Positions 20,079 through 59,104 of a stretch of DNA of 59,857 nucleotides are shown here, piece after piece. The stretch spans positions 1 to 59,857 of the IMG/VR virus record IMGVR_UViG_3300012347_000101. One strand, given 5' to 3'. The position numbers and the translations under genes were made by a program. The notes under the pieces are model-generated. The model did not search any database. It was not told the origin of the DNA and worked only from the letters and a program-made list of their open reading frames with translations. Position 1 is the stretch's first letter, and each line of letters opens with the position of its first letter. This stretch comes from a virus. Taxonomy: Duplodnaviria; Caudoviricetes.

Positions 20079-22053
20079 TGAGTTCCTCGCGCAGCGCATT
20101 CACCAGACTGGAAATTTTAGCTGGATTGTATTCAACCAGTCCGCCTTCAGCGTAACCGTGTTCTGGTTCTGGCGTTTCATGCTGGCCTGACATCACGTTA
20201 CCGATGATGTAGTCGACCTCAAGCGGGCTGTACTCGGCGTGGCCGACTAGGCCGCCTTCAGCGAAGCCTTTAGCCTTGTTCAATGCATTCAGCGCGCTGT
20301 TTATCTCTTCAGCCGTCCCATACTCAGGAGCCTCTACACCATGTTGTTTCATCTCTTGAATCAACTCTGGAGTCCAATTGCTACGCTGCATACGAGCGTT
20401 GCTCAGGTCGCCAACTTCACCCCACTTACCAGAGCGCACAAAGTCCTGCACGAACGGTAGGTATTCTTCCTTGGGAGCCTTGTTGGCTTTACCTTTGATC
20501 TGAACTATCTTTTCAGGAACTTGAGACGAAGCCGCTTCATACGCTGCTGAAGTTTCAGGATGGTATTCCTGCAACCACTCAGACAACGACTTACCTGCTC
20601 CGCTCTCATCCGTGAAGTATTTGCTAAACAGCTTCGGATCATGCTTCTGCAACCAGAGCTGACCTTCAAAACTTTGGGGAGAAGTCTCAACCGTCACATG
20701 AGGCTCGCCGGTCTTCTTGTTGCGTAGGCTGAAGATTCGCGACTTACCCTCAAGCACGTCTGGGCAGTAACCGCCGACGCAGTGGCCCATGGTCTCGCCT
20801 TCGTACTTGAGGGCGTCTTCAAGGGCTGCGTGGCGAGGATCTCTGTTGACTTCTTGCAGTTTACCCTCAGAGTCCACCCACTGTTCTTTACCGAAGCGGT
20901 CGGTCGTAGTTGTCCAACCTTCAGGCAGGTCATCAGGCTTCTTCAACTCCACCCACTTGTACGGGGCGTCCTCGTAGTCTTTATGCGTGAACGCCGCAGC
21001 GTTGTTGGCGCGAGCCTGATCAGCTGCGACTTTCTGCGCCGCTCTCCAGTCGTTAATCGCAGCCACACGCTCAACCGCCTGAGGCACTGTCACTTTGTCA
21101 AGATCTTGGTACTTCCAACGCAGGTTAGCGGGCAGGCCGCTCTCAGGGTTCACGGTGTTGCGGAGTTCGTCAATCAGATGATTGAAGCCGAGGTCATCTC
21201 CTAAGTCTCGCGGGTTACCAACCCCGTAAACTGAAGTTTCCGGAGGAACCTTAGCCAACCACGGGTTTTCTCTCACTTCTCTTGGGTAGTCTACCAGCTT
21301 ACCGGCGAGGTTAGGCTCAACAGACAAGTCTGAGGCTGTTTCCCACTGCTTAGCTAACTCGGATCGCCCTAAGCCTTGGCCGGCAAAGCCTTCCATCTCA
21401 CGGATATGTCTCAAATCATCGGTCTTACTCGGCCCGTATGTCCTAGGTTCAGCATGCAACACGCCCCGCTCAGCCAGCGCCCGCAAAGGATCCTCAGGGG
21501 TGCCCATCTCGTTCTTGATGTACTTGCTGAGCTTGGTGTCGAGCCACTTGTTGACAACGGCGTTAGGATCTGATTTCAAATACTCAGCCCACTGCTCATC
21601 AGAAGCTATGTCCGGCTTTGAAGTAACCCGCGACTTCATCGGCTCAACGGCCTTCTCAACCGAGCCGGCAAGCCAGTTACCACCCTTGGGCTTGATGACG
21701 TGCGGAACGCCGGCAGCCGAGGCGTGAGCAAAGTCCTTGGCGGCCTGAGTCACAGCGAACTTGGCGGCACGGGGTACACGGGCCAAAGCTGGCGCAGCAA
21801 ACATCATCGCGTCTGCCGTGTCGTCTTGAAGCATAGGCACGTTGGCCTTGCCGATGTTCGTTACCGGCTCGCCGTAGCTCATGCGCTCAACAGTACGGGC
21901 CGTGGCCGGTAGGCCGAGCGCCTCACTTAGCAAACGGGCCGGTGGGTTAGAGTAGCCGAAAGGCTTGCTGGCGAACTCGTGGGTGCCTTGCAGCAGACGG
22001 GCTAACTGCGCCAACGCAGGGGACTGAGGGGTTGCTCTCAGGTTATCGGCCAC
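20071..22053 (-). CDS. Large protein with a PcfJ-like domain and C-terminal AEGGLV motifs
   Basis: L.YEGETMGHCVGGY...IFSLR...PHVTVE...QIKGKAN; AAGGAG before GTG 22053. Confidence 0.65.
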   Translation of the reverse strand: MADNLRATPQSPALAQLARLLQGTHEFASKPFGYSNPPARLLSEALGLPATARTVERMSYGEPVTNIGKANVPMLQDDTADAMMFAAPALARVPRAAKFAVTQAAKDFAHASAAGVPHVIKPKGGNWLAGSVEKAVEPMKSRVTSKPDIASDEQWAEYLKSDPNAVVNKWLDTKLSKYIKNEMGTPEDPLRALAERGVLHAEPRTYGPSKTDDLRHIREMEGFAGQGLGRSELAKQWETASDLSVEPNLAGKLVDYPREVRENPWLAKVPPETSVYGVGNPRDLGDDLGFNHLIDELRNTVNPESGLPANLRWKYQDLDKVTVPQAVERVAAINDWRAAQKVAADQARANNAAAFTHKDYEDAPYKWVELKKPDDLPEGWTTTTDRFGKEQWVDSEGKLQEVNRDPRHAALEDALKYEGETMGHCVGGYCPDVLEGKSRIFSLRNKKTGEPHVTVETSPQSFEGQLWLQKHDPKLFSKYFTDESGAGKSLSEWLQEYHPETSAAYEAASSQVPEKIVQIKGKANKAPKEEYLPFVQDFVRSGKWGEVGDLSNARMQRSNWTPELIQEMKQHGVEAPEYGTAEEINSALNALNKAKGFAEGGLVGHAEYSPLEVDYIIGNVMSGQHETPEPEHGYAEGGLVEYNPAKISSLVNALREELNA

Positions 22054-31825: not shown

Positions 31826-31912
31826 GTTGTTTTGTTGAATTTTTTGAGGCAAAATTCAATACGTTGGTTCAGCAATGAATGAACAATGAATAACTTAATA
31901 ACTGGAGTAACT
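31826..31912 (+). promoter_or_regulatory. Rightward promoter and ATAACT-repeat leader of the early operon
   Basis: TTGTTT-17 bp-CAAAAT in an AT-rich divergence point; ATAACTTAATAACTGGAGTAACT before ATG 31913. Confidence 0.55.
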
Positions 31913-33550: not shown

Positions 33551-33849
33551 GTACGAACCACATTGAGGCCCGAGGCCGCACCATGTACTGCACCCGCTGT
33601 GAGTGCGCTGCGACTGTTAAAATGCCCGCCAACATTGACAACATCATCAAGCAGATGGACGACTTCCGTGATACGCATGAGAAATGCCCGCCCCGCGCTA
33701 GCGAGGCAGAGATGTCTGAGTACATTAGGGGTTTTGATGCCGGTTGCGAGCACCTGATGCGTGAGATAGAATTATTCAACAACCGAGCACCCCTGCAACC
33801 TGCGTTGGTTCCGGAAGTGCTGAAACACCTGCGTAAAGGCTTGAAATGA
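33547..33849 (+). CDS. Hypothetical protein with CxxC...HxxC
   Basis: YCTRC...HEKC; ATGA overlaps. Confidence 0.6.
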   Translation: MSTNHIEARGRTMYCTRCECAATVKMPANIDNIIKQMDDFRDTHEKCPPRASEAEMSEYIRGFDAGCEHLMREIELFNNRAPLQPALVPEVLKHLRKGLK

Positions 33850-34808
33850 CACAATCAATTTTCCCCGTCCTCGCACTTGACCGCGCTCAGGTGCAATGGG
33901 AGCAACACCTCGGGGACCTCACCCCGTGGGAGAACCGCGACGGTATCTGGTTCAAACGTGAGGACTACTTCGCGCCCCTCGGCTACGGCGGCCCTAACGG
34001 GTCTAAGATGCGCCAGCTCATTTGGTACATGAACCGCTACCGTGAGGGCAAGACTCACGTGCTGACCGGCGCGAGCATTCAGAGCCCACAGCTCAGTATG
34101 TCCGCCATCGTCGGCGCGCACTTCGGCCTCAAGTGCCGTCAGGTGGTCTACAGCAAGCCGCATACGGTGCTGACGCATGAGAACCCGAGTATCTCAGCCG
34201 GTTTCGGCGCTGTGTTTGAGTACGTGAACGGGCCGTACAACCCCATCATCCAACGGCGCGTGGTTGACCTGACTCAGCCCACCTCACTGGTGGTTGAGTA
34301 CGGCATCACGGTGCCGCACAAGACGCGCCCCGCTGAAGATGTGTTGAAGTTTCATGAGGTCGGCGCTAACCAGATTCGCAACTTGCCCGCTGAGGTGAAG
34401 ACGCTGATCGTACCTGCCGGCTCATGCAACTCGCTTTGCAGCATGTTGTTAGGTCTCAGCCGAGACTCCAAGAACCTGAACCGCCTGCGCATCGTGGGTA
34501 TCGGCCCTGACAAGCGTAAGTGGGTGCGTGAGCGTATGGTGATTATGGGGGTTGACATTGACCGCCTGCCGTTCGTCACCGAGTACCACAGCCTGCACGA
34601 CACCGGCTTCAGCAAGTACAGCGACAAGTTCAAAGGTGAAAACCACTCCGGTATCAATTTTCACCCCACGTATGAGGCCAAAATTTGGCGTTACCTGCGT
34701 GAGTCGGCCTCGCTTTACGCTGATGACAAGACTGGGTTCTGGATCGTCGGTAGCGCGCCTAATCCCGCAATCGTGAAGCCGTTCTACACTAACACAGGAG
34801 CCGCCTGA
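33846..34808 (+). CDS. PLP-dependent (fold type II) enzyme; putative decarboxylase acting on amino-acylated DNA thymidine
   Basis: LTP...WFKRED...NGSKMRQ (Schiff-base Lys), VPAGSCNS loop, FHPTYEAK; context of the modification cluster. Confidence 0.8.
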   Translation: MTQSIFPVLALDRAQVQWEQHLGDLTPWENRDGIWFKREDYFAPLGYGGPNGSKMRQLIWYMNRYREGKTHVLTGASIQSPQLSMSAIVGAHFGLKCRQVVYSKPHTVLTHENPSISAGFGAVFEYVNGPYNPIIQRRVVDLTQPTSLVVEYGITVPHKTRPAEDVLKFHEVGANQIRNLPAEVKTLIVPAGSCNSLCSMLLGLSRDSKNLNRLRIVGIGPDKRKWVRERMVIMGVDIDRLPFVTEYHSLHDTGFSKYSDKFKGENHSGINFHPTYEAKIWRYLRESASLYADDKTGFWIVGSAPNPAIVKPFYTNTGAA

Positions 34809-35648
34809 TGTTTAACCGTATTTACACAATCATCAAGCGTCGAGTCAAGCGCAAGCTAACCGTTGTCATCTACAAGAAGCCCAAGATCGTGCGTGCCTCA
34901 ACGCTTGAGCGCGCCCAACACTACGTTGACAACCACGGCTGCCCGACGACACGATGCTTCCCTCGCACCACGGACGATGCGTTCCGCCACTTGGGTGACG
35001 GCATGGAGACGTTCTTCCCCCCTGAGCAACGCTGGCAAGACAAAGCAATGTTTGCCGTTGGCGTTTGCTGCTGGATCGCCCTTGGCATTTTTTACTGGAG
35101 ATACCTATGAACATACATCAATGCCAAAAATGGGCAGAAACAAACGGCTTTGACGGGGCTGAGTTTTATGCAGACTTTCCAGCAGGTAGGAAAAAGTGCA
35201 AGTGGCTTGATGCGTACTTTGGGATGTTTGAGATTCCTGGGGTAACAGACGGTTTCCTTATGGTCAGCCAAATAGACGAAATGTTTCCAAATCTTTCTTG
35301 TGAACCGATTGAGGGTAAAAATGAACAAATTCTTTAAAGACGTAGTTAGCCTGCTTTACTGGCTCTTTCCCTTCATCTGCACCTGCGCGTTTGCGTACGT
35401 GTTCGGCGCGTTCATCGAGTGGTCACGCGACCCCGCTGACTGGGCTTGGCAGGCGCGTTTCTGCGCCGTTATCTTTGGTGTCTCGCTCGGGTTCGCGGTT
35501 GACCGCCGCCTTGAGTTCAACGTGCGGGACTGAGATGGAAGCTGTTGAAAATATCGTATTGATGGCGCTACTCATGGCGCTCGGTGTCAGCGTCACTGTC
35601 GCGGTGCTGATTGGTTTCTTATATCACTTGGAGGCTCAGAATGATTGA
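34808..35648 (+). other. Four small hypothetical genes (34808-35110, 35107-35337, 35321-35533, 35535-35648), three with TM helices
   Basis: Overlapping or abutting ORFs between the PLP enzyme and the transferase. Confidence 0.55.
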
Positions 35649-36633
35649 CTACCGCCTGCCGGAGAAGCGTGAGGAGTACTTCACCGCGCTCTACAAGATG
35701 AACCTCGAGTACGGCGTCATGCCTGGACTCGTGTACTTGTACATGCCCGCCTTGGCAAAGGCTAACGGCTGGGACGCTGAGCAGAAGCTCTGGTTCGCGT
35801 TCCTGAACGGGTTGACTCAGAACCCTATCACCTCGTTGCGTATGTTCCAACGCCTGTCAGAGTGTCCGCCCGAAGGCGCACCCCTCACTGGCTTTGAGCA
35901 GTGGTTCAACGACAACTGGGAGACCTTGCAATTTGACACCGACCGCCGGTATCAAAAGAAGGACACCCTGCCCGCTATCCGCCAGTACGCAAAGCTCGTC
36001 AAGCAATACGGCTCGCAGGAGCAAATGCTCACCGGCGCTTACGCTGATCTGTGGAAGTTGGTTCGTGAGAACTACTACACGTTCGGTCGCCTGAGTTCCT
36101 TCAGCTACCTCGAGTACGTACACATCATGGGGTTCGGTGATGACTGTGACGACTTGATCTTCAGCGACAAGTCGGGCAGCAAGTCACACCGTAACGGTAT
36201 GTTGTTCCTCATCGGCAAAGACGACTTGGTGTGGGACAAGCGCCTGCCTAACGGTCAAGACGGCAACTACAACAACTTCAAGATGATGTGCGGGTTCTTA
36301 GCCTCTAGCGCAGATGCGCACATTGAGAAGTTCAAAGCCCTGAACCCTGACGTACCTAATGTGGGTCGGTTCACCTTTGAGTCTAACCTGTGTACGTTCA
36401 AGAATCACTTCTTCGGTCGTCGCTATCCAGGAGTCTACGCCGACATGGCACAAGACCGTATTGAGTGGGCAGACGAGCGCGGGCAGCAGGAACACACCGA
36501 GGTGTTCAAAGGTATGCGCGCGGGGCTGTTGCCTGAGTGGTTGCGTCGTGAGTGCTCACCGGCCTCAGTAAAGTCGGTTGGCGCTTTGTTCCCTGAAACG
36601 GGTGTCCCTTATCGTGCGGAGTACTTCTTATGA
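35641..36633 (+). CDS. Amino acid:DNA transferase (aGPT-Pplase2 family)
   Basis: DYRLPE.R, LWFAFL.G.T, FDTDRRYQK, FGRLSSFSYLE, SHRNG, ESNLCTFK, RYPG.Y.D. Confidence 0.8.
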   Translation: MIDYRLPEKREEYFTALYKMNLEYGVMPGLVYLYMPALAKANGWDAEQKLWFAFLNGLTQNPITSLRMFQRLSECPPEGAPLTGFEQWFNDNWETLQFDTDRRYQKKDTLPAIRQYAKLVKQYGSQEQMLTGAYADLWKLVRENYYTFGRLSSFSYLEYVHIMGFGDDCDDLIFSDKSGSKSHRNGMLFLIGKDDLVWDKRLPNGQDGNYNNFKMMCGFLASSADAHIEKFKALNPDVPNVGRFTFESNLCTFKNHFFGRRYPGVYADMAQDRIEWADERGQQEHTEVFKGMRAGLLPEWLRRECSPASVKSVGALFPETGVPYRAEYFL

Positions 36634-37176
36634 ATCCAACCCCTCGTTTGCGCTTTGTTGAGCGCGGTGTAATAGAACACGAAAGCCCTGACGGAACGGT
36701 CACGGTGGTGCGTAAGGTTCGCATCCTGCAGCAGTGGTTTGCGTACGACATCGAATACCCGATGACTAAAGGTGAATGGAAGGATGTACCATGCGAAACC
36801 GAACAATGACCGAACGCTCACGCCAAGCTGCAATCCGCCGCTTGAGCAAGTACCCTCTCGGCGGTGACAACTTCGGCTGGCACAAGTACTACGCTGAACG
36901 GTTCAACAAGACAGGTCGCCCTGACTGCGCCCATCTGGCGATTTGGTACTTGTTGCTACATCTTGCGTTAGGAGAAGAACAATGAAGTTGTCACGGTATA
37001 GAATCATCAAAGACAGCTACGCAGGGTTCGAAGTTCAGAAGTGGCGGTTGTGGTGGCCGTTTTGGATGCAATGTCACACGGGTCTTACACTGTGCAACAC
37101 TCATGACAGTCTTGAAAAGGCTTTGGCTTTTGTCGAATGGCATAAGGCCGGCAAAGAAGTTTGGAGGGAACAATGA
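36630..37176 (+). other. Three small hypothetical genes (36630-36809, 36806-36985, 36982-37176)
   Basis: Chained ATGA overlaps; 36630-36809 (LRFVER...ILQQW...GEWKDVP) is absent from the ORF track. Confidence 0.6.
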
Positions 37177-37754
37177 ATTTTCAAATCGTAAACATTCGCG
37201 GCTGTAACGGCTCAGGCAAGACCACAATCGTGCGCCGGTTCCTTGATCGCCTGCACACCGTCAAGCTCGGCCCTAACCAGAGCAAGCCTTGGGGCTATAG
37301 TGTTGACGCCTCTGCTTGGGGTATCCAGACCCCGATCATGGTCATCGGCTCGTATGAGAACACCTGTGGTGGTACTGATGGTATTAGCACTCAGGAAGAG
37401 ATCGCTGACCGCGTGGTTAGGGCTCGTGACTACGGACATGTGCTGGTTGAAGGTTTGCTCATGAGCAAAAGTTCCGCTGGTGGTCACGTAGCTCCGATCC
37501 TAAAAGACTACGGCGCTATCTTCGGGTTCCTTGACACGCCTTGGGATGTCTGCTTGCAGCGCGTGCTTGACCGCCGTAAGGCCGCCGGCAACGACAAGCC
37601 GTTCGACCCCGAGAAGACCATGCGCTCGGCCTATGAACAATGTCACCGCTCGGCTGAGCTGTTGACTCAAGCCGGTGGGTATGATGTCCGCTGGATCGAC
37701 CACCTGAACGCCGTCGGAACCGTCGTGCAATATTTGAAAGATGCTGAAGTATGA
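37173..37754 (+). CDS. P-loop nucleotide kinase associated with base modification
   Basis: IRGCNGSGKTT, IGSYENTCGGTD, LDTP...CLQRVLDRR lid. Confidence 0.8.
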   Translation: MNFQIVNIRGCNGSGKTTIVRRFLDRLHTVKLGPNQSKPWGYSVDASAWGIQTPIMVIGSYENTCGGTDGISTQEEIADRVVRARDYGHVLVEGLLMSKSSAGGHVAPILKDYGAIFGFLDTPWDVCLQRVLDRRKAAGNDKPFDPEKTMRSAYEQCHRSAELLTQAGGYDVRWIDHLNAVGTVVQYLKDAEV

Positions 37755-37984
37755 AAGTTAAATTTAGCGGTTGGCCTTGGCAGCCGGTTTATGATCATTG
37801 GTCCACCGGCCTCGACAAGACGGCTGGCGAAAAGTGGGGTTGGAACCCGTTCAAAGTTAAAGGTGCTGGTCGCTTCGGCGGTTGGTGGGCGTTCAAGTTC
37901 GGAATCACAATCTCGAGCAGTCTGCGGGACGTTATCATCGACCTAGGAATAGGTTCAATCCGCATCACTGGAGAACGTAAATGA
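37751..37984 (+). CDS. Hypothetical Trp/Gly-rich protein
   Basis: ATGA overlaps on both sides. Confidence 0.6.
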   Translation: MKVKFSGWPWQPVYDHWSTGLDKTAGEKWGWNPFKVKGAGRFGGWWAFKFGITISSSLRDVIIDLGIGSIRITGERK

Positions 37985-38898
37985 TTGATGTCTGCCCGTA
38001 CAAGCGCCCTGACGAGCGCACCGTGACCTCGCTTGAGGGGTTGCTGTACTTCGTCTGGGAACGTGAAGCCGTTCGAGTCGCCAAAGAGGGCGGCTGGCCG
38101 GTTGACTCACTCACCAATGACCCTGTACTCAAGAAGTACAAGTTCACCAATATTCGCCGCCGTGATGATCGTGTCTCTCAGTGGGTCATTGATCACTTGA
38201 TTGAGCCTCACTACGATGACAGCAGTTTGTGGTTTACGTTGCTCATCGCGCGCCTAATCAACTGGCCCCCGACCTTGCAGGCGTTGATGCATGAACGCGT
38301 CATCCCTTGCGGCCCTTACGAGTTTGACGCTGAGTTGTTCTCAGTGACGATTGAGGCGCTCAAGGGTGACGGAGCTAAGGTCTACTCGGGCGCTTACATG
38401 GTCTACCCGACCAAGATGGACGTGGGGGGTAACAAGTCTTCCGCGATCGCCACGCATATCATCGGGGACGTCATCAAACACTCGGATGATATCCACTCGG
38501 CGCTCTGGTATTGCCAGCCCACGGTGGCGGGGTTTGTCGAGGCGCTCTCTAAATGTTTTGGCCTGAGCACTTTTATGGCGGGCCAAGTGGCTGCTGATTT
38601 GACATATTGCCCTCACCTGAGTGGGGCGGCTGATTTGTTCACCTACGCGCCAATCGGCCCAGGAAGCTCTCGCGGTCTGAACTACTTGAAGGGCCGCCGC
38701 CCGTTTGCGAGCTGGGGTCAGGCGGACTTCAACAAGGCGCTCATCGAGGTGCGCGAGGCGATTGAAGAGCGCCTTGACATACAAGACATGACGCTACATG
38801 ATGTGCAAAACGTTATGTGCGAATTCAGCAAGTATTGCCGCTGTGTCCTGAATGAGGGCGTCCCTAAAACTATCTACAAACCCGAGGAGTTGTTCTAA
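37981..38898 (+). CDS. 5-hydroxymethyluracil DNA kinase (aGPT-Pplase1 family)
   Basis: ERE, T.DPVL..YKFTNIRR.DDRVS, YSGAY, FMAGQVAADL, GPGS.RGL, CEFSKY. Confidence 0.85.
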   Translation: MIDVCPYKRPDERTVTSLEGLLYFVWEREAVRVAKEGGWPVDSLTNDPVLKKYKFTNIRRRDDRVSQWVIDHLIEPHYDDSSLWFTLLIARLINWPPTLQALMHERVIPCGPYEFDAELFSVTIEALKGDGAKVYSGAYMVYPTKMDVGGNKSSAIATHIIGDVIKHSDDIHSALWYCQPTVAGFVEALSKCFGLSTFMAGQVAADLTYCPHLSGAADLFTYAPIGPGSSRGLNYLKGRRPFASWGQADFNKALIEVREAIEERLDIQDMTLHDVQNVMCEFSKYCRCVLNEGVPKTIYKPEELF

Positions 38899-39894
38899 AT
38901 GGAAATTACTGTACGCAACGTGAATCAGGCTTTTGGTGAGGTCTTCTGGAAGATGAAGGCGCTCGGGCTCAAGCCTGAAAACACCCGTAACGGCCCCGCG
39001 CTCGTGTTCCCTGAGCCGGTCATCACCACCTACCGCTACCCGCAGGAGCGAGTGTTGTTCCACAAGGGGCGCGATGCGAACCCGATATTCCATCTGATGG
39101 AGTCGATCTGGATGCTAGCGGGCCGCCGTGACGTGCAGTTCCTGCAGCACTTCAACAGCACTATTGGCCAGTTCAGCGATGACGGCAAGGTGTTCAACGC
39201 TGCATACGGCTACCGCTGGCGTAGGCACTTCGGGTTTGACCAACTTGAGGAAGTCATCAAAGCCCTGCGCCGTGACCCTGAAACCCGTCAGGCCGTTATT
39301 CAGATGTGGGATCAAGATGACCTCGTCAAGCGTACTAAGGACAAGGCGTGTAACACACAGGTCGTCTTTGACACCCGTGGTAACAAACTGAACATGACCG
39401 TGTTCAACCGCTCTAATGACATCTGGTGGGGTGCCTACGGCGCTAACGCTGTGCACTTCAGTTTCCTGCAAGAGTTCGTCGCCTGCGCCATCGGTATGCG
39501 CTGTGGGGCTTACCGTCAGGTGAGTAACAATCTTCACTTGTACACTGAAGTCTACAACGCCACAAAGTATGTGGAATCACCCCCGAACCATGAAGACTTT
39601 GACCTGTATTCATCGGGTATCGTTCGCCCCACACCTATCATGCTCAACGGCGACTACAAGTCGTTCCTAGCTGACTGTGAGAAGTTCTGCTGCGATCCGT
39701 TCAATCAGTCAGCTGAGTACAAGAATCCGTTCTTCACGCATGTGGCGCAGCCGATGGCCATGGTCAGCCGCATTCGCAAGATCCGCGCCGGTGACGGCAC
39801 AGGCTTCGCTGCTAAGATCCGCGCTCAAGACTGGAAGCGCGCGGTGTTCGATTGGATCCACAAGCGCGAATTGCTTAGGGCCGAGAAAGAGTAA
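38899..39894 (+). CDS. Thymidylate synthase superfamily dUMP hydroxymethylase
   Basis: TRNG, ANP.F...E, AYG.R, catalytic ACN, NRSND, GANAVHF (Asn indicates dUMP specificity), NLHLY; adjacent to the 5-hmdU kinase. Confidence 0.85.
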   Translation: MEITVRNVNQAFGEVFWKMKALGLKPENTRNGPALVFPEPVITTYRYPQERVLFHKGRDANPIFHLMESIWMLAGRRDVQFLQHFNSTIGQFSDDGKVFNAAYGYRWRRHFGFDQLEEVIKALRRDPETRQAVIQMWDQDDLVKRTKDKACNTQVVFDTRGNKLNMTVFNRSNDIWWGAYGANAVHFSFLQEFVACAIGMRCGAYRQVSNNLHLYTEVYNATKYVESPPNHEDFDLYSSGIVRPTPIMLNGDYKSFLADCEKFCCDPFNQSAEYKNPFFTHVAQPMAMVSRIRKIRAGDGTGFAAKIRAQDWKRAVFDWIHKRELLRAEKE

Positions 39895-39908
39895 ATCATG
39901 AATACCGG

Positions 39909-39956
39909 CGCGATTTGAAAATACAATCGCGCTGGTGTTAAATCTGAGGCTAAAAT
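39909..39956 (+). promoter_or_regulatory. Promoter with 23-bp palindromic box and TAAAAT -10
   Basis: CGCGATTTGAAAATACAATCGCG, 19 bp, TAAAAT; the palindrome extends to a 15-bp stem 39901-39939. Confidence 0.6.
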
Positions 39957-39962
39957 TCAACT

Positions 39963-40108
39963 CATGCTGACGGACAAGTAGGTTTGAAGCCAGTAGCGAA
40001 CACGAGTAACCCCTAGGGGTGAAGGGCTAGTAGTGAAGACGATGAAATCCGAACCTCCTAAATGCATGTCGTGCAGACGTAAAGGCTGACGCCTCGGAAA
40101 GACGAGGG
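39963..40108 (+). ncRNA. Candidate structured leader RNA
   Basis: CAUGC/GCAUG, AGGUUUG/CGAACCU, ACCC-CUAG-GGGU and CCUCG-GAAAGA-CGAGG stems; no ORF in the track. Confidence 0.4.
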
Positions 40109-40136
40109 CTTATAACTGAATAACTGGAGTAACTTG

Positions 40137-40262
40137 ATGAAATTTGACACCTCTGAACTTTTGAAGATCTTGGCGCACTTGTCCCTTGAGGGTGAGACGT
40201 TTGAGATTTGCCGCGCGGCGCTCAAACTTCAAGTCGCCCTGCAAGCTGCTCAGCGCGGTTGA
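40137..40262 (+). CDS. 41-aa helical peptide (not in the ORF track)
   Basis: GGAG RBS; MKFDTSELLKILAHLSLEGETFEICRAALKLQVALQAAQRG. Confidence 0.6.
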   Translation: MKFDTSELLKILAHLSLEGETFEICRAALKLQVALQAAQRG

Positions 40263-40292
40263 CCGTATAACTTGATAACTGGAGTAACTTGA

Positions 40293-40793
40293 ATGCGACA
40301 CACCCTTGAATTTATTATGGCCGGCAGTGAGGTCAAGCGGTATCACACCGTGCGCACACTGACGACCGAAACCGTGGGGCACCACTCTCACGGCGTGGCA
40401 ATGCTTTGCCTGTTGTTGAAGCCTGCCGCCTCTGAAAACCTGTTAAAAGCCGCGCTGTATCATGACCTCGCCGAGTGCATCACAGGTGACATTCCTTCCC
40501 CTGCTAAGCGCCTTTACGGTATCGGTACTCAAGTCAGTGATCTTGAAGACAAGTTACTGGCTGACCACGGTTTGCAGATGCCGAAACTTTGGCCCGCTGA
40601 GAAACGCATCCTCAAACTGGCTGACATCGCTCAAGGTGCGTTGTTCTGCACCCGTGAGGTCGAGCTGGGCAACCGCAAAATGAGCCTCATCTACGCTCGC
40701 TATATCTCTTACGCTGAGGACATGATCCTCGTTGGGCGCGAGCGCGAACTCTTCGATTTCATCAACACTAAATTTTTGGAGATCTTCAAATGA
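40293..40793 (+). CDS. HD-domain deoxynucleotide phosphohydrolase (YfbR-like)
   Basis: KRYH...ETVGHHS, ALYHDLAE.ITGDIPSP.K, KLAD. Confidence 0.85.
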   Translation: MRHTLEFIMAGSEVKRYHTVRTLTTETVGHHSHGVAMLCLLLKPAASENLLKAALYHDLAECITGDIPSPAKRLYGIGTQVSDLEDKLLADHGLQMPKLWPAEKRILKLADIAQGALFCTREVELGNRKMSLIYARYISYAEDMILVGRERELFDFINTKFLEIFK

Positions 40794-41227
40794 CTGCAAA
40801 CACTATGCAAATCGGCGGCAACCACTACCGCTCAGGTATCCAGCACTGGGACTTGATGGACGACTACCGTGTCGGCTATCTTGAGGCCGCCGCGACTAAG
40901 TACATCACCCGCTGGCGCAACAAAGACGGCGTCAAGGACTTGCAGAAGGCTTTGCACTTCGTCAAGAAACTCGCTGAGAAGCGTCAAGACGCGCCGCAGG
41001 TTGAGATCTCTGAGCGCATCCCTCAGGTGCCCCGTCAGGCTATCAACAAGTTCCTCGAGGCTAATCAGCTCACCGGCGACGATGCCGACATCATTAGCCA
41101 CCTGCTCACTTGGCAGAGTACCGGTACTTTACACCTTGTTGCGGGTCGCATTCAGCAGGTCATCAACGGCGCTACGCCTGATGACGGCGCTGACGCCTCA
41201 ATCGGTTACGTCAATCAGGATCGTTAA
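40790..41227 (+). CDS. DUF3310 (SaV/T7 gp1.7-like) protein; possible nucleotide kinase
   Basis: QIGGNHY...KYITRWRNKDGVKDLQKA.H. Confidence 0.8.
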   Translation: MTANTMQIGGNHYRSGIQHWDLMDDYRVGYLEAAATKYITRWRNKDGVKDLQKALHFVKKLAEKRQDAPQVEISERIPQVPRQAINKFLEANQLTGDDADIISHLLTWQSTGTLHLVAGRIQQVINGATPDDGADASIGYVNQDR

Positions 41228-43068
41228 TGCCTACTTTCGTGTTCGACATCGAGACACTCCCCAACTACACTCTGGTGTCCTTCAAGGACATCGAGTCGAA
41301 GGAGTATTTCCGCTTCCGCCGTAACGAGCCGGACGCAGTCGAGCGCCTGAAAGCCTTCCTCAACTCTGATGACACGTACATCGGGTTCAACAGCAACAGC
41401 TTTGACAACATCGTGCTGGCGGCCTTCCTAGCAGGGCGCACAACGATTGAGATCAAGCGCATAGCTGATGACCTGATTGTGAACCGTGTGTCACCTTGGC
41501 AGGCGTACACCAAATACTCCCTGCTGCGCCCTGCGATTGACACCATCGATTTGATTGAGGTTGCACCCTCATTTGTTGGCCTCAAAGCCTACGGCGCGCG
41601 TATGCATATGCCGCTGCTGCAGGACATGCCGATAGCTCACGACGAGTGGATCACTGAAGAGCAGCGCCCTATTGTTGACTCGTACTGCGACAACGACTTG
41701 GACACCACGGAAGAGCTGGTCAACCGGCTCGAGCCTGAGCTGATGCTCCGCATCGCGATGTCTAAGCAGTATGGCGTGGACATGCGTAGCAAGTCTGATG
41801 CGCAAATGGCTGAGCAGGCGTACATCACCTCGATGGGCCTGCAACGCCGTGACAACAAGATCCCTAAGACGATCACCTACACGCCGCCCGCCTTCCTGAA
41901 GTTTCAAGACGCCGAGCTGCAACACCTGCTTGAAAGGGTCTCCCGCCATGTCTTCGATATCAACCAAGCAACAGGACATGTTATCCTACCTGACTTTCTT
42001 GGCGGGGAAGTCATCAGCTTTGGGAGCGGAACCTATCAGCTCGGTGTTGGCGGCATCCATAGCACCCACGATAAGTCAGTTTGCTACGTTGCCGGCGGAG
42101 AAACAATCTGCGATATTGACGCAGCTAGCTTCTACCCGAGCATCATCCTTGAGTGCGGATTTGTACCTGCGAGCCTTGGAAAGCGGTTTGTCGATGAGTA
42201 TCGTCAAATTTACGAGCGACGACTTGAAGCTAAGCGTACAGGAGATAAAGCAACCAATGAAACCCTGAAGATTTCGCTCAACGGCACGTTCGGCAAGCTC
42301 GCTTCTAAGTACTCTGTGTTGTACTCGCCTGACCTGATGCTCGCCGTTACGCTCACCGGCCAGTTCACATTGCTGATGCTGATTGAGTGGCTCGAAATCC
42401 TCGGGGCTACCACCCTTAGCGCCAACACTGACGGCATCGCGATCCGTTACGGAAACCACCTCGAGGCTGGCGTTCAGAAGGTGGTTAAGCGTTTCAGCGA
42501 GGTGTCTCGGTTTGAATTTGAGTTCACGCCGTACCGTGTACTGGCTATGAAAGACGTCAACAACTACATCGCGGTCAAACCTGACCGTAAACTGAAGGCG
42601 AAGGGAATCTATGCTCCACTCTCTCTTAAGAAAAACCCGACTGCTCAGGTGGCAGCGGATGCAGTGTCGGAATGGTTGGCAACGGGAACTCCGTTTCAAG
42701 ATACGATTAAAGCTGCGCCTTTCACAGATTTTATCAGTGCGCGTAACGTCACGGGTGGCGGTGAGCAAAATGGCGTGCCCCTCGGTAAAGTTGTCCGGTG
42801 GTATCAATCGTCGGATGCTAGCCTACCGCCACTTAAGTACATTAAAAATGGCAACAAAGTACCAAAGACGGAAGGCGCGCGGGCGTGTATGACTTTGAAA
42901 GACAAGGTCACGCATCCCGCAGACCTTGACTACGAATGGTATCATAAAGAGGCAATCAAGATCGCACTCGCGGTTGGGTGTCACGCATACCTCACTGACG
43001 AACAGCTTAAACTTGTTGCCCCGCCCCCAAAGAAAACTCGAAAGAAGAAAACAGATGTCACAACATGA
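41227..43068 (+). CDS. Family B DNA polymerase with 3'-5' exonuclease
   Basis: Exo FDIE, FN...FD, YC.ND; polymerase DAASFYPS, KISLNGTFGK, NTDG, DVNNY. Confidence 0.9.
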   Translation: MPTFVFDIETLPNYTLVSFKDIESKEYFRFRRNEPDAVERLKAFLNSDDTYIGFNSNSFDNIVLAAFLAGRTTIEIKRIADDLIVNRVSPWQAYTKYSLLRPAIDTIDLIEVAPSFVGLKAYGARMHMPLLQDMPIAHDEWITEEQRPIVDSYCDNDLDTTEELVNRLEPELMLRIAMSKQYGVDMRSKSDAQMAEQAYITSMGLQRRDNKIPKTITYTPPAFLKFQDAELQHLLERVSRHVFDINQATGHVILPDFLGGEVISFGSGTYQLGVGGIHSTHDKSVCYVAGGETICDIDAASFYPSIILECGFVPASLGKRFVDEYRQIYERRLEAKRTGDKATNETLKISLNGTFGKLASKYSVLYSPDLMLAVTLTGQFTLLMLIEWLEILGATTLSANTDGIAIRYGNHLEAGVQKVVKRFSEVSRFEFEFTPYRVLAMKDVNNYIAVKPDRKLKAKGIYAPLSLKKNPTAQVAADAVSEWLATGTPFQDTIKAAPFTDFISARNVTGGGEQNGVPLGKVVRWYQSSDASLPPLKYIKNGNKVPKTEGARACMTLKDKVTHPADLDYEWYHKEAIKIALAVGCHAYLTDEQLKLVAPPPKKTRKKKTDVTT

Positions 43069-43387
43069 ACTCGGTAACACTCGCACGGTCTACGTCGTGC
43101 AGGTGGACAACAATAAGGACTTGTCTGACGCCAAAAAGTATGGGGCGTTACGGGCAGTGTTTGCGAACCCACGCAAGCCTTATGACACAGACAGTATGGT
43201 CGCCAAGGCGCGCCATATTTTGAAGGATTGGCAAGAAGGCGACTTCTTGTTGATGATTGGAGACCCTGCGTTGTGTGCAATATGCACAGCGATCGTCTCT
43301 GACATGGTTGGTAAAGTAGACCTGCTCAGCTGGGATAGGAATACTTTTCAGTACGTACCGCAAGAGTGGTATTTTGACGGGGCGTAA
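43055..43387 (+). CDS. Small alpha/beta hypothetical protein (start ATG 43055)
   Basis: VYVVQ...A.KYG...DFLL.IGDP...LLSWD. Confidence 0.65.
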   Translation: MSQHELGNTRTVYVVQVDNNKDLSDAKKYGALRAVFANPRKPYDTDSMVAKARHILKDWQEGDFLLMIGDPALCAICTAIVSDMVGKVDLLSWDRNTFQYVPQEWYFDGA

Positions 43388-43417
43388 GCCTCATAACTTA
43401 GAAAGTGAGAAAGTAAA

Positions 43418-57094: not shown

Positions 57095-58425
57095 CAGAAC
57101 GATCCGCCGTTAACCGTACCAGCAGGGGCGACCCCGAGCGTTGTCCATGCCGCCGCTGTGTCCGCTGCCGTAAATAAAGCTGCGCCGACAGTGGTCGCGC
57201 CGAGGTCAGTTCTAGCAGCGGAAGCCGAGGCCGCCGTAAACACCGCCGCACCAACCGAAGTTGCGCCGAGGTCAGTTCTAGCGGCAGAAGCCGAGGCCGA
57301 AGTGAACAGAGAGATACCTAACGAGGTGCCGCCGAGGTTGATTCGAGCGCCCGCCGCCGTAGTTGCGCCGGTTCCGCCTTCGGCCACGAGAATAGGTAAC
57401 GCAACGCCAGCTGTGTCAGCCGGAACCACGTTTGTACCGTTACAGTACAAGATCACGCTCTGACCTTGAGCAATGGTGTAGCCGGTGCCCGCAGCGGTTT
57501 TGACCGTGAGGTCGTAAGCACCGGTGGTGCTGTTAGTCACCCAGTATTGTTGCACCGTGACCGGTACAATCACGTTACGGTCACCGGTCAAGGTTCCCGT
57601 AAAGTCGTAGGCGATGCGGTTCAGCTCAGAACCCGTGAGGGTGTAGTCACCCGTGCCGCCGATAGCGATGGACGTGTAGTCAAACGCAAACACGGCGTCT
57701 TTACCGTAGCCGATGGTGAAGTAGTTGACCCCGTCTGTGACGATCATTGACGACTCGCCAGGATTGTAGGTCTTTGTGGAGCTACCGTCAATAGAGACAG
57801 AACCTGACGGGTCAACGAGCAGCGCGCCCGAGCCTTGGTTGCTCACGTTGATGAACCAACCGTTACCCACTGTGGCTGCTGAGGGTAGCGTCAAAGTACC
57901 GCCTGCGCCGTTCCACACAAAGAACTTTGAACGGTCAGTGTCACCGGCGGTGTAGCTGCTGTTGAAGTCTGTGGTGGGCATGTCCTGAGACAACGCCGTT
58001 CCGACTGCGATTAAGCCGGTTCCCGCTAACGTAGAAGCGTTGGCCGCCGACAGCGCAGCGCCGTACTGGAACGTGCGCCACACGCCAGCCGCAGTGGTGT
58101 TGTTGGTCAGATAAATTTGCCAGCTCGTACCCGCCGCCATCGCGATCTGTTGCGTACCGGCTGAGTTCTTAACCAGTACTTGGGTCGCACCATAGTTGGT
58201 GAACAAGATGGTCTCACCGGTGCCTGCCTTGTTAGCTTCGGGCAGGTAGATGCTCCAACCGCCAACCGCCGCTGTCACATCGATGATACGGGTGGCGAGG
58301 TTGTCGTTAGTGGAGGTTTCCTCTGGCCAGCTGAGCACAACGTCTGCCGTCAGCGTCAGAGAGCTATAGCTGACCTCGCTGGGGTAGATGTTAGCGCCGC
58401 CAAAGACGTTAGTGTAGGTCGTCAT
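57094..58425 (-). CDS. Tail fibre/needle-like structural protein
   Basis: TLPSAATVGNGW, GGTGATTAAGARINLG, 22-aa tandem repeats (66-bp period at 57197/57263), ends NGGSF. Confidence 0.65.
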   Translation of the reverse strand: MTTYTNVFGGANIYPSEVSYSSLTLTADVVLSWPEETSTNDNLATRIIDVTAAVGGWSIYLPEANKAGTGETILFTNYGATQVLVKNSAGTQQIAMAAGTSWQIYLTNNTTAAGVWRTFQYGAALSAANASTLAGTGLIAVGTALSQDMPTTDFNSSYTAGDTDRSKFFVWNGAGGTLTLPSAATVGNGWFINVSNQGSGALLVDPSGSVSIDGSSTKTYNPGESSMIVTDGVNYFTIGYGKDAVFAFDYTSIAIGGTGDYTLTGSELNRIAYDFTGTLTGDRNVIVPVTVQQYWVTNSTTGAYDLTVKTAAGTGYTIAQGQSVILYCNGTNVVPADTAGVALPILVAEGGTGATTAAGARINLGGTSLGISLFTSASASAARTDLGATSVGAAVFTAASASAARTDLGATTVGAALFTAADTAAAWTTLGVAPAGTVNGGSF

Positions 58426-59057: not shown

Positions 59058-59104
59058 TAATACTCCAAAGGTACAAGCAGCTGATTCAGCCAACGCTGGT
59101 GGAA

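What the first reader, a model, noticed from the sequence alone, without database searches (positions are those of the whole stretch)
33846..43068. Complete thymidine-hypermodification pathway in a podovirus-like, PolB-encoding phage
Seen: a co-oriented cluster of PLP enzyme, aGPT-Pplase2-type transferase, P-loop kinase, aGPT-Pplase1-type kinase, TS-family enzyme with the dUMP-specifying Asn, HD hydrolase, DUF3310 protein and family B polymerase. Established: in ViI, M6, PaMx11, phiW-14 and SP10, 5-hmdU replaces T, is phosphorylated on DNA by 5-hmdU DNA kinase, substituted by an amino acid:DNA transferase and often tailored further. Those phages are myo- or siphoviruses. Inference: this genome replaces T with 5-hmdU plus a hypermodified T, in a head/tail chassis that I do not know to carry such a pathway.
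Basis: partly seen in the sequence, partly recalled or inferred. Interest (0 to 1): 0.85.

Follow-up and report, generated by a model that had tools for sequence, protein, structure and literature searches.

The report
Thymidine-hypermodification cluster in short-tailed phage lineage
This complete 60-kb uncultured phage genome carries a conserved gene set for replacing thymine in its DNA with an amino-acid-derived hypermodified base, a known anti-restriction strategy, here found in a podovirus-like virus type where it had not been noted.

Summary
Window 33846-43068 (+ strand) encodes, in order:
- a PLP enzyme homologous to the ViI gp226 decarboxylase;
- an amino acid:DNA transferase (AADT, PF18724);
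- a P-loop 5-hmdU DNA kinase;
- an aGPT-Pplase1/HMUDK_hel protein (PF18723);
- a thymidylate-synthase-family enzyme with the signature of dUMP hydroxymethylases;
- an HD nucleotidase;
- a DUF3310 protein;
- a divergent family-B-like DNA polymerase.

Catalytic residues are invariant in the relatives examined. The downstream gene order is collinear in 42 of 44 related IMG/VR loci that were long enough to test.

The window is a complete viral genome. Its structural module (major capsid protein 85% identical to Caulobacter phage RW; portal, terminase and an SU10-type adaptor shared with the TEM-verified podovirus HTVC023P) supports a short-tailed virion.

- 37981-38898 is not the kinase. The P-loop protein at 37173-37754 is.
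- By analogy with ViI and M6, mature DNA should hold T plus hypermodified T, not 5-hmdU.
- Nucleotide-pool functions are only partly present.
- The donor amino acid is unknown. ViI-like O-serine followed by decarboxylation is my best guess.

Such combinatorial clusters in metaviromes were already described (Lee 2021). I rate this a new member of a known kind, of moderate interest.

The parts
33846..34808 (+). PLP-dependent enzyme (fold type II), homologue of the ViI gp226 decarboxylase; predicted Schiff-base lysine K54
   Evidence: phrog_3650 6e-80. 32.6% identical to ViI gp226, E 4e-60. K54 aligns with ViI K92 and M6 gp52 K36. K54 is present in 56 of 56 lineage sequences. Pfam PALP is below its cut-off.
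34808..35110 (+). 100-aa ORF of unknown function; not a conserved part of the cluster
   Evidence: No Pfam or PHROG hit. Found in only 2 of 80 related loci.
35641..36633 (+). Amino acid:DNA transferase (AADT, aGPT-Pplase2); predicted catalytic Cys251 and metal ligands E247/S248 (numbered from ATG 35641)
   Evidence: PF18724 66.9 bits. AF2 model pLDDT 94. Top PDB fold match is PaMx11 gp46 5-PmdU glycinyltransferase, probability 1.00, TM 0.53-0.61. C251 is invariant in 44 of 44 sequences. The motif matches M6 gp51.
37173..37754 (+). P-loop 5-hmdU DNA kinase (5-HMUDK); the ORF could also start at TTG 37161
   Evidence: 30% identical to M6 gp54, E 2e-16. Profile against M6 gp54: 99.3% probability, E 1e-20. 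29 of 29 lineage members hit PF18748. Walker A GSGKT is invariant.
37751..37984 (+). 77-aa ORF of unknown function; possibly not a gene
   Evidence: No family hit. Found in 0 of 80 related loci.
37981..38898 (+). aGPT-Pplase1 / HMUDK_hel protein, helical and DNA-glycosylase-like; role unknown; Cys280 invariant
   Evidence: PF18723 132.6 bits. 30% identical to M6 gp55. Matches the C-terminal part of SP10 gp186. AF2 model pLDDT 89.9; best folds are HhH 8-oxoG glycosylases, but weakly (probability 0.93, TM 0.37-0.49). C280 is present in 74 of 74 sequences.
38899..39894 (+). Thymidylate-synthase-family enzyme, predicted dUMP 5-hydroxymethylase
   Evidence: 43.5% identical to M6 gp58. 46% identical to SPO1 gp29, annotated dUMP hydroxymethylase, E 3e-48. 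Best PDB match is the CMP hydroxymethylase MilA at 2.9e-24, against 1e-12 for the best TS. All NCBIfam TS equivalog models score far below cut-off. Signature residues are shared with five hmU-phage enzymes.
40293..40793 (+). HD-domain YfbR-like 5'-deoxynucleotidase; candidate enzyme for depleting dTMP/dT nucleotides
   Evidence: PF12917 51 bits. NCBIfam 5'-deoxynucleotidase 2.5e-9, below cut-off. 38% identical to M6 gp59. The HD motif is present in 71 of 71 sequences.
40790..41227 (+). DUF3310 protein; possible nucleotide kinase acting on 5-hmdUMP (inference)
   Evidence: PF11753 25.6 bits. 37% identical to M6 gp61. The same domain forms the C-terminal part of T7 gp1.7, annotated 'nucleotide kinase'. 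PHROG relatives are labelled nucleotide kinase.
41227..43068 (+). Divergent family-B-like DNA polymerase
   Evidence: phrog_1252 7e-166. About 39% identical to the polymerases of 9g/Seurat-type and other phages, which are annotated polymerase B / polymerase II. Weak matches to Pol II in NCBIfam and PDB.
58425..59093 (-). Tail adaptor of the SU10 (short-tailed phage) type; context for the chassis claim
   Evidence: PF24175 104.1 bits, E 1.7e-29. Homologues in RW (61%) and HTVC023P (28%) and in 5 of 5 complete relatives.
17580..20099 (-). Portal protein; context
   Evidence: 51% identical to Caulobacter phage RW and 32% to HTVC023P/027P. Found in 5 of 5 complete relatives at 42-76% identity.
13687..14601 (-). 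Major capsid protein; context
   Evidence: 85% identical to RW over 248 aa and 39% to the HTVC023P capsid protein. PHROG major head families.

Best explanation
The cluster is a working thymidine-hypermodification pathway of the 5-hmdU / 5-PmdU type. It is a core trait of an uncultured lineage of roughly 56-61-kb podovirus-like phages.

Proposed mechanism. Steps 1-4 follow from homology to enzymes that were characterised biochemically. The details of the product are inferred.

1. Before replication, the TS-family enzyme (38899-39894) makes 5-hmdUMP from dUMP. The HD nucleotidase probably drains dT nucleotides. The DUF3310 protein may help phosphorylate 5-hmdUMP. The phage's own polymerase incorporates 5-hmdU in place of T.
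2. On DNA, the P-loop kinase (37173-37754) phosphorylates the hydroxymethyl group, giving 5-PmdU.
3. The AADT (35641-36633) attacks C6 with Cys251, expels phosphate and adds a free amino acid.
4. The PLP enzyme (33846-34808, Lys54) tailors the attached amino acid, most likely by decarboxylation. There is no radical-SAM isomerase. The PLP enzyme is of the ViI gp226 type and needs a free alpha-amine. The amino acid is therefore most likely attached through its side chain. My best single guess is O-serine followed by decarboxylation to a 5-aminoethoxymethyl-dU-like base.
5. As in ViI and M6, only a subset of T positions would be hypermodified, and the rest would end up as T.

The role of the PF18723 paralogue is unknown.
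For: Family assignments:
- AADT: PF18724 66.9 bits. The AF2 model has as its top PDB match the PaMx11 gp46 5-PmdU glycinyltransferase.
- Kinase: the lineage profile matches the experimentally verified M6 gp54 at 99.3% probability, and 29 of 29 members hit PF18748.
- PLP enzyme: E 4e-60 to ViI gp226, with K54 aligned to K92.
- TS homologue: 46% identical to SPO1 gp29 dUMP hydroxymethylase.

TS signature: it shares with 5 of 5 hmU-phage enzymes compared the loss of ThyA W80, W83->F/Y, H147->N and L143->D. It keeps C146, R166, S167, D169 and N177.

Lineage-wide residue invariance:
- AADT C251 in 44 of 44.
- PLP K54 in 56 of 56, TS C151/N152/N183 in 72 of 72, HD motif in 71 of 71.

Synteny:
- kinase, Pplase1, TS, HD and DUF3310 mirror M6 gp54-55-58-59-61.
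- The order is collinear in 42 of 42 loci that carry all six downstream genes, out of 44 testable loci.

Precedent: a phage with the ViI gene set was shown by LC-MS to carry 5-NeOmdU (phiHS2; passages read).
Against: - There are no chemical data. Everything rests on homology.
- The AADT is only 26-29% identical to the serine transferase ViI gp247.
- Its closest cultured relatives (37%) are uncharacterised mycobacteriophage AADTs that sit beside T-dioxygenase/ParB genes.
- By motif alignment, the residue after the catalytic Cys is Thr. It is Lys in the Gly-transferases and Gly in the diamine transferase. It appears to be Trp in ViI, though that part of the alignment is uncertain. The donor therefore cannot be read off.
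- The PLP enzyme's closest solved relatives are desulfhydrase/deaminase-type enzymes, so a reaction other than decarboxylation is possible.
- 7 of 44 relatives with enough upstream sequence lack the PLP gene, so this step is dispensable.
- I recognised no dCMP deaminase, dTTPase or classical dNMP kinase.
- For this one sequence, the single-sequence Pfam scores for the kinase and for PALP are below their cut-offs.
Confidence: 0.8

Rival explanations
1. The pathway is the same, but the donor and product are new. The AADT uses a substrate other than serine, glycine, putrescine or 1,3-diaminopropane, and the PLP enzyme tailors that adduct. The result is a thymidine hypermodification that has not been described.
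For: The AADT falls outside all characterised clusters. Its E-value to ViI gp247 is 1e-24, against the 1e-50 network cut-off used by Li et al.. It has no BLAST match to M6 gp51. Pocket positions differ from the characterised enzymes. Li et al. state that many Pplase2 clusters remain uncharacterised.
Against: The PLP partner is clearly of the ViI gp226 type (E 4e-60). The gene set equals the ViI set. In phiHS2, that set gave 5-NeOmdU.
Confidence: 0.4
2. The TS-family gene is an ordinary thymidylate synthase, and the cluster is only nucleotide metabolism. The DNA stays canonical.
For: The Pfam Thymidylat_synt domain is present, and the uracil-specifying Asn and catalytic Cys are kept.
Against: All six NCBIfam TS equivalog models score far below cut-off, for example 79 against 174.55 bits. 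The best solved match is a hydroxymethylase. E-values are 3e-48 to SPO1 gp29 but 1.5e-7 to T4 td. W80 and H147 of ThyA are lost, as in all five hmU-phage enzymes compared. The gene sits beside a 5-hmdU DNA kinase and an AADT, which have no substrate in T-DNA.
Confidence: 0.03
3. The genes are a decaying or silent remnant in this genome.
For: None directly. Expression was not tested.
Against: All ORFs are intact. Catalytic residues are invariant across 29-74 relatives that are 40-90% identical. The gene order is kept in 42 of 44 loci.
Confidence: 0.04
4. The virion is not short-tailed. It is a siphovirus or myovirus whose tail genes are too divergent to be recognised.
For: Many structural ORFs have no annotation. 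I found no morphology for the closest cultured relative, RW, in the passages I read.
Against: An SU10-type adaptor domain scores 104 bits, and SU10 is short-tailed (abstract in the listing). Homologues of the portal, MCP, TerL, adaptor and other structural ORFs occur in HTVC023P, which its authors place in Podoviridae and describe as resembling podoviruses in morphology. No tape measure, tail tube or sheath family turned up among the 30 structural or packaging ORFs scanned. One lead points to a P22 gp10-like 'Phage_stabilise' family (17% of a neighbouring cluster's members).
Confidence: 0.15

Closest known systems
Salmonella phage ViI 5-NeOmdU pathway (dUMP hydroxymethylase, 5-HMUDK gp67/gp243, AADT gp247, PLP decarboxylase gp226)
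   Same: The set of enzyme types is the same and there is no radical-SAM step. The PLP enzyme is 32.6% identical with the aligned Schiff-base Lys. ViI gp247 is the closest characterised AADT.
   Different: ViI is a 157-kb myovirus with its genes scattered over the genome. Here they form one compact operon-like block in a 60-kb podovirus-like genome. The AADT is only 26-29% identical. The kinase, TS, HD and Pplase1 proteins are closer to the M6 type. There is a single kinase rather than two.
Pseudomonas phage M6 / YuA 5-NedU cluster (gp51-gp62)
   Same: The order kinase, Pplase1, TS homologue, HD, DUF3310, polymerase is the same, at 30-44% identity.
   Different: M6 has a radical-SAM isomerase, which is absent here. 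Its glycine AADT, PLP enzyme and polymerase give no significant BLAST match to the window's proteins. M6 is a siphovirus.
Mycobacteriophage ParB / T-dioxygenase / AADT / kinase cassettes (for example phage Prince genes 1-4)
   Same: These are the closest cultured AADT homologues, at 37% identity over 96% of the length.
   Different: They make 5-hmU on DNA with a TET/JBP-type dioxygenase instead of a dUMP hydroxymethylase. No PLP gene is adjacent, and they are siphovirus genomes. I found no report of their product in the passages I read.
Caulobacter phage RW (Riverwalkvirus) and HTVC023P-type pelagiphages
   Same: The structural and packaging module is shared. 15 of 87 window ORFs match RW (MCP 85%, portal 51%). 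9 of 87 match the first 50 kb of HTVC023P.
   Different: None of the window's replication or modification ORFs match them at E 1e-5. RW carries a PolA-type replication module.

Membership tests
5-hmdU-derived thymidine hypermodification pathway (Lee et al. 2018, 2021) | TS-family dUMP hydroxymethylase rather than thymidylate synthase | tested here: met
   46% identical to SPO1 gp29 and 43.5% to M6 gp58. The hydroxymethylase-type signature is shared with 5 of 5 hmU-phage enzymes. NCBIfam TS equivalog cut-offs are not reached. Enzyme activity itself was not tested.
5-hmdU-derived thymidine hypermodification pathway (Lee et al. 2018, 2021) | P-loop 5-hmdU DNA kinase (PF18748) | tested here: met
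   The single sequence scores 16.4 bits, below the cut-off of 27. However, 29 of 29 lineage members hit PF18748 at E<=0.01 (best 6.8e-8), and hhalign to M6 gp54 gives 99.3% probability.
5-hmdU-derived thymidine hypermodification pathway (Lee et al. 2018, 2021) | AADT / aGPT-Pplase2 (PF18724) with a catalytic cysteine | tested here: met
   66.9 bits against a cut-off of 26.2. Top fold match is PaMx11 gp46. The Cys251 motif is invariant in 44 of 44 sequences.
5-hmdU-derived thymidine hypermodification pathway (Lee et al. 2018, 2021) | Virion DNA contains a hypermodified thymidine | not testable with these tools
   The virus is uncultured. No chemical or raw-signal data were examined.
ViI-type 5-NeOmdU sub-pathway | PLP-dependent decarboxylase of the gp226 type with the Schiff-base lysine | tested here: met
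   E 4e-60. K54 aligns with K92 and is conserved in 56 of 56 sequences.
ViI-type 5-NeOmdU sub-pathway | Serine-specific AADT (gp247 cluster) | tested here: inconclusive
   26-29% identity and E 1e-24. Pocket positions are not identical and the alignment is offset by one residue around the Cys.
M6-type 5-NedU sub-pathway | Radical-SAM glycinyl-thymine isomerase next to the PLP enzyme | tested here: not met
   The ten ORFs of the region that I scanned have no radical-SAM hit. M6 gp53 has no significant BLAST match to any of them: nothing at E<=1e-3 and only chance-level matches (E>=1) at E<=10.
Canonical thymidylate synthase (ThyA) | Reaches the equivalog cut-off and keeps the folate/hydride-transfer residues W80 and H147 | tested here: not met
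   The best NCBIfam TS model scores 79.1 bits against a cut-off of 174.55. W80 is deleted and H147 is replaced by N152.
Short-tailed (podovirus-type) virion | Podovirus-type adaptor, and structural homologues in phages described as podoviruses | tested here: met
   PF24175 SU10 adaptor at 1.7e-29. Portal, MCP, TerL and adaptor homologues occur in HTVC023P. The authors place that phage in Podoviridae.
Short-tailed (podovirus-type) virion | No tape measure, tail tube or sheath | tested here: met
   No such family appeared in the PHROG and Pfam scans of the structural ORFs. This is negative evidence only, because several ORFs remain unannotated.
Short-tailed (podovirus-type) virion | Short tail seen by electron microscopy | not testable with these tools
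   There is no isolate.
Family B DNA polymerase | Significant match to family-B polymerase models | tested here: inconclusive
   No Pfam hit. NCBIfam Pol II scores 30.6 bits against a cut-off of 570. PDB Pol II gives E 3e-3 over residues 326-419. Homologues at about 39% identity are annotated polymerase B / II.

The most novel reading that the evidence does not exclude
This abundant uncultured podovirus-like lineage makes a thymidine hypermodification that has not been described. Its AADT belongs to an uncharacterised subclade whose pocket residues match none of the Gly, Ser, putrescine or diaminopropane enzymes. Natural variants with and without the PLP gene would carry the tailored and untailored forms. 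In addition, the PF18723 paralogue carries an invariant Cys in a motif like the AADT catalytic motif. It could be the missing enzyme that turns the remaining 5-PmdU into canonical T.
Probability: 0.3. Interest if true: 0.65.

Novelty: new member of a known kind. Interest (0 to 1): 0.42.

Why it matters
Hypermodified thymidines block many restriction enzymes, and their enzymes are useful tools for writing chemistry onto DNA.

This finding extends the pathway to a third virion type and to a compact single-block gene arrangement. It also defines a large, internally consistent family: at least 80 IMG/VR loci, and 596 protein clusters for the AADT. That family includes natural variants with and without the PLP gene and an uncharacterised transferase subclade.

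This gives a ready set of genes for donor-specificity screens. It also gives a defined place to test what the aGPT-Pplase1 paralogue and the DUF3310 protein do.

It does not change the concept. Lee et al. 2021 already reported modular recombination of these genes in metaviromes.

Tried and rejected
- Nucleotide search of the region against 50,697 phage records found nothing. The lineage has no close cultured relative in that collection, which runs to August 2025.
- Sequence searches of the PDB with the AADT, alone and as a 23-row profile, found no transferase. Only the fold search did.
- hhalign of the AADT profile against M6 gp51 gave 2.6% probability. I use only the short shared Cys motif from it, and I do not treat the pocket mapping as established.
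- hhalign between the Pplase1 and AADT profiles gave nothing.
- The Pplase1 model did not retrieve PaMx11 gp46. It gave only weak matches to HhH glycosylases.
- I asked whether the kinase and the Pplase1 protein bind each other, because they are fused in SP10 gp186. The complex-prediction job gave no verdict (score 0.00). I draw nothing from it.
- I considered the GNAT acetyltransferase at 54889-55362 as a possible tailoring enzyme, as in PaMx11. I rejected it as a core part because only 1 of 5 complete relatives have it.
- The PHROG label 'terminase small subunit' for 37161-37754 was rejected. The real TerS is at 24931-25533. The label follows the GenBank names of M6 gp54 and SP10 gp186, which are proven kinases.
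- Promoter and terminator scans of 31500-43500 did not exceed shuffled controls.
- No tRNA genes were found.
- I did not build a TS-family tree, an AADT tree with all characterised members, or a host prediction.
- I did not use sequencing-run tools.
- Literature searches for a short-tailed phage with this pathway found none. The library lacks most subscription journals, and supplementary files were not consulted. In particular, I could not check the contig lists behind Figure 2 of Lee 2021. This lineage may already be among their 352 IMG/VR2 contigs.
- Recalled and not checked by any search: L. casei TS Trp82 mutants release hydroxymethyl-dUMP; T7 gp1.7 biochemistry beyond its GenBank label; Lys51 as the PLP lysine of D-cysteine desulfhydrase.

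Full report
**What the window is.** The window is a whole IMG/VR virus record of 59,857 bp. It is classed as having direct terminal repeats and as 100% complete. I found an exact 55-bp repeat at the two ends. It has no tRNA genes. GC content is about 52-60% throughout.

Genes on the minus strand at 344-24221 and 48967-59737 encode packaging and virion proteins: TerL, portal, MCP, tail fibres, an adaptor and ejection-type proteins. Genes on the plus strand between about 31.6 and 48.9 kb encode replication, recombination and nucleotide functions.

| Coordinates | Gene | Main evidence |
|---|---|---|
| 33846-34808 | PLP enzyme | PALP 21.8 bits, below cut-off 35; phrog_3650 6e-80 |
| 35611-36633 | AADT | PF18724 'Amino acid:DNA transferase' 66.9 bits, cut-off 26.2 |
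| 37161-37754 | P-loop kinase | Only weak P-loop hits; PF18748 16.4 bits |
| 37981-38898 | aGPT-Pplase1 | PF18723 'HMUDK_hel' 132.6 bits |
| 38899-39894 | TS-family enzyme | PF00303 80.7 bits |
| 40293-40793 | HD hydrolase | PF12917 YfbR-like 51 bits |
| 40790-41227 | DUF3310 protein | 25.6 bits, cut-off 24 |
| 41227-43068 | Polymerase | No Pfam hit; phrog_1252 'DNA polymerase' 7e-166 |

- The AADT's relatives align from residue 8-13 of the ORF, and an ATG with a GGAGG upstream lies at 35641.
- The small ORFs between the main genes (34808-35110, 37751-37984 and others) have no family hits. They occur in at most 4 of 80 related loci, so I do not count them as parts of the system.

**The weakly scoring genes, tested further.**

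*Kinase.*
- It is 30% identical to M6 gp54 (E 2e-16). Lee et al. showed that purified M6 gp54 phosphorylates 5-hmdU in DNA (section read).
- A 29-sequence alignment of lineage kinases matches M6 gp54 at 99.3% probability.
- 29 of 29 members hit PF18748 at E<=0.01.
- The PHROG label 'terminase small subunit' is an inherited misnomer. The real TerS is at 24931-25533.

*PLP enzyme.*
- By tblastn it matches 348 phage records, led by Salmonella, Vibrio, Klebsiella and Escherichia phages of about 145-160 kb.
- It is 32.6% identical (E 4e-60) to ViI orf00226 = YP_004327553. That protein is the PLP decarboxylase that converts O-serinyl-T to 5-NeOmdU (section read).
- Its K54 aligns with ViI K92 and M6 gp52 K36, the lysines those authors proposed for the internal aldimine.
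- K54 is present in 56 of 56 lineage sequences.

*Polymerase.* Its only matches to curated models are to family-B Pol II, and they are far below cut-off. Its phage homologues, at about 39% identity, are annotated polymerase B / II. I call it family-B-like, not proven.

**The TS homologue.** It is much closer to hydroxymethylases than to thymidylate synthases.
- Against the PDB, the best match is the CMP 5-hydroxymethylase MilA (2.9e-24). The best TS scores 1e-12.
- In whole phage records it matches SPO1 gene 29, annotated dUMP hydroxymethylase, at 46% identity and E 3e-48. It also matches SP10 gp188 (45%), the ViI homologue (39%) and the PhiW-14 homologue (33%). T4 td scores only 1.5e-7.
- It is 43.5% identical to M6 gp58.
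- All six NCBIfam TS equivalog models score far below their cut-offs.
- I aligned it with E. coli ThyA and those five phage enzymes. It keeps E58, Y94, R126, C146, R166, S167, D169, N177 (window N183), H207 and Y209.
- Like all five phage enzymes, it lacks W80 and has F/Y for W83, N for H147 and D for L143.
MilA has Asp at that position in the printed alignment.
- C151, N152 and N183 are invariant in 72 of 72 lineage sequences.

**The transferase.**
- Sequence searches of the PDB found nothing.
- An AlphaFold2 model built from 44 lineage sequences (pLDDT 94, pTM 0.91) has as its top three PDB matches the crystal structures of PaMx11 gp46, the 5-PmdU glycinyltransferase. Probability is 1.00, TM 0.52-0.61 and identity 14-15%.
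- PaMx11 gp46 uses Cys247 as the nucleophile (passages read).
- The window protein and M6 gp51 share a motif, E-[ST]-x-L-C-x-[FW]-K-x-H...Y-P.
- Within that motif, C251, E247 and S248 are invariant in 44 of 44 sequences.
- Li et al. 2026 report that an invariant Cys is catalytic, that an E-T pair binds the metal, and that the position after the Cys helps set donor preference: Lys in the YuA glycine enzyme and Gly in the diamine enzyme (sections read).
- Here that position is Thr. In ViI gp247 the motif is offset by one residue, and the equivalent position appears to be Trp.
- I therefore cannot assign the donor from sequence.

**The Pplase1 protein.**
- It is 30% identical to M6 gp55. It matches the C-terminal part of SP10 gp186.
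- Lee et al. found M6 gp55 dispensable for glycine transfer. They also found that an SP10 gp186 deletion containing only the kinase domain was still active. So this protein is not 'the kinase'.
- Its model (pLDDT 89.9) resembles HhH 8-oxoguanine glycosylases only weakly (probability 0.93, TM 0.37-0.49).
- It has a Cys that is invariant in 74 of 74 sequences, in a motif (M-C-E-Y-S-K-Y) that resembles the AADT motif.
- Its function remains open.

**Comparison with known clusters.**
- The block kinase, Pplase1, TS, HD, DUF3310, polymerase has the same order as M6 gp54, 55, 58, 59, 61, 62. The first five are 30-44% identical.
- The AADT, PLP enzyme and polymerase have no significant BLAST match in M6, and M6's radical-SAM gene has no counterpart here.
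- The PLP enzyme is of the ViI type.
- The AADT is closest to uncharacterised mycobacteriophage genes (37%) that sit in a ParB / thymidine hydroxylase / AADT / kinase cassette.
- The cluster is thus a hybrid of known modules. Lee et al. 2021 describe this kind of combinatorial shuffling for metavirome contigs (sections read).

**How widespread it is.**
- A scan of IMG/VR with the AADT gave 92 candidate stretches. Of these, 86 were confirmed and 80 kept as loci, at 54-95% identity. Many lie on contigs of 53-61 kb.
- Of 44 loci with at least 7.5 kb downstream, 42 carry all six downstream genes, collinear in 42 of 42. The two exceptions, L073 and L082, have other arrangements.
- Of 44 loci with at least 4 kb upstream, 37 have the PLP gene and 7 do not.
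- Five diverse complete relatives (56-61 kb) all have the same portal (42-76%) and adaptor (41-83%).
- A search of 5.8 billion proteins found 596 clusters at E<=1e-10. The 120 listed are all metagenomic, and none carries a phage name.

**The chassis.**
- 15 of 87 window ORFs match Caulobacter phage RW. All lie in the structural and packaging module (MCP 85%, portal 51%, adaptor 60%). None of the replication or modification ORFs match.
- RW has a PolA-type replication module and no annotated modification genes.
- 9 of 87 ORFs match the first 50 kb of pelagiphage HTVC023P: MCP 39%, portal 32%, TerL 32%, the adaptor and others. A whole-record search confirmed the adaptor.
- ORF 58425-59093 carries the SU10 adaptor domain (PF24175, 1.7e-29). 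SU10 is a short-tailed phage (abstract in the search listing).
- No tape measure, tube or sheath family was found.
- A neighbouring Atlas cluster of ORF 55553-57094 carries 'Phage_stabilise' on 17% of its members. This is a lead only.
- I put the short-tailed reading at about 0.8-0.85.
- The cultured 5-HMUDK phages in Table 1 of Lee 2018 are all myo- or siphoviruses (passage read).
- The cultured phages that hit the Pplase1, AADT or PLP proteins are spread over many host genera. None is named as a podovirus in the search output, which gives no morphotypes.
- My three literature searches found no short-tailed example.

**Mechanism and its limits.** The steps dUMP to 5-hmdUMP, incorporation, phosphorylation on DNA, amino-acid transfer and PLP tailoring follow from homology to characterised enzymes.
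- There is no isomerase to unmask an amine. The ViI-type PLP enzyme needs a free alpha-amine. These two facts point to side-chain attachment, with O-serine as the precedent.
- The phiHS2 preprint shows that a phage with the ViI gene set does contain 5-NeOmdU, at about 16% of dT (passages read).
- By analogy with ViI, M6, SP10 and PhiW-14, packaged DNA should contain no 5-hmdU.
- Pool manipulation is only partly encoded. The HD protein is a candidate dT-nucleotide hydrolase.
- The DUF3310 protein shares its domain with T7 gp1.7, annotated 'nucleotide kinase'. That link is weak: the BLAST E-value is 0.009 over 43 residues.
- I saw no dCMP deaminase and no dUTPase-fold dTTPase of the kind described for phage 15599.

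**Verdict.** The finding is real and mostly read correctly. It is a new member of a known kind of system, in a virion type and gene arrangement I did not find reported in my searches. Its transferase is uncharacterised. Interest is moderate.

Noticed in passing
window 54889-55362 (-): A GNAT-type acetyltransferase (phrog_4470, 3e-24) sits inside the virion-protein operon. Only 1 of 5 complete relatives have it, so it is an accessory gene. A role in acetylating a modified base, as in PaMx11, is conceivable but unsupported.
   Followed up: partly
L026, L062, L068, L070, L071, L074, L077: Seven of 44 related loci with at least 4 kb upstream of the AADT lack the PLP gene. In most of them the conserved 194-aa upstream gene abuts the AADT directly. 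These natural variants would be expected to keep the untailored adduct.
   Followed up: partly
L046:9241-10011, L049:2315-3061, L061:3726-4493, L066:9246-10013, L079:9228-10007; L021:7038-7859, L033:6857-7795: Some relatives carry an extra ORF of about 250-260 aa between the PLP gene and the AADT. Of the four I scanned (the L066 ORF was not scanned), none has a Pfam family apart from a weak GIY-YIG hint in L079. Two others carry a DHH/DHHA1 phosphoesterase-like ORF there.
   Followed up: partly
window 31886-32470 (+): A 194-aa protein with a weak Lar-like zinc-ribbon / HNH signal (below cut-offs) is the conserved upstream neighbour of the cluster. It is found in 53 of 80 related loci. Its function is unknown.
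   Followed up: partly
window 44851-45759 (+): An SPFH/Band-7 protein (PF01145, 9e-13; phrog_200 'lipoprotein') is inserted between the DUF669 gene and the Cas4-like exonuclease gene. It is absent from all 80 related loci.
   Followed up: no
window 20071-22059 (-): A 662-aa ORF between TerL and the portal carries a PcfJ-like domain (PF14284, 5.6e-10). Its role is unknown.
   Followed up: no
window 2647-5184 and 5188-7686 (-): Two tandem paralogous tail-fibre / virion proteins of about 840 aa each (both phrog_19943, about 1e-190).
   Followed up: no
window 16846-17280 (-): A GroES-like co-chaperonin gene lies in the head module. It is homologous to RW GP090 (62%) and HTVC023P gp36 (30%).
   Followed up: no
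window 37161-37754; M6 gp54; SP10 gp186: The PHROG family phrog_800 and the GenBank records label proven or predicted 5-hmdU DNA kinases as 'terminase small subunit'. This annotation error can hide such clusters.
   Followed up: yes
window 59138-59737 (-): An endolysin / glycoside-hydrolase-like protein (phrog_181, 2.7e-76) lies directly beside the adaptor gene, at the end of the virion operon.
   Followed up: no
P0081: One AADT homologue (67% identical) is deposited under a Micrococcales metagenome-assembled genome. It could be a mis-binned viral contig or a host hint.
   Followed up: no
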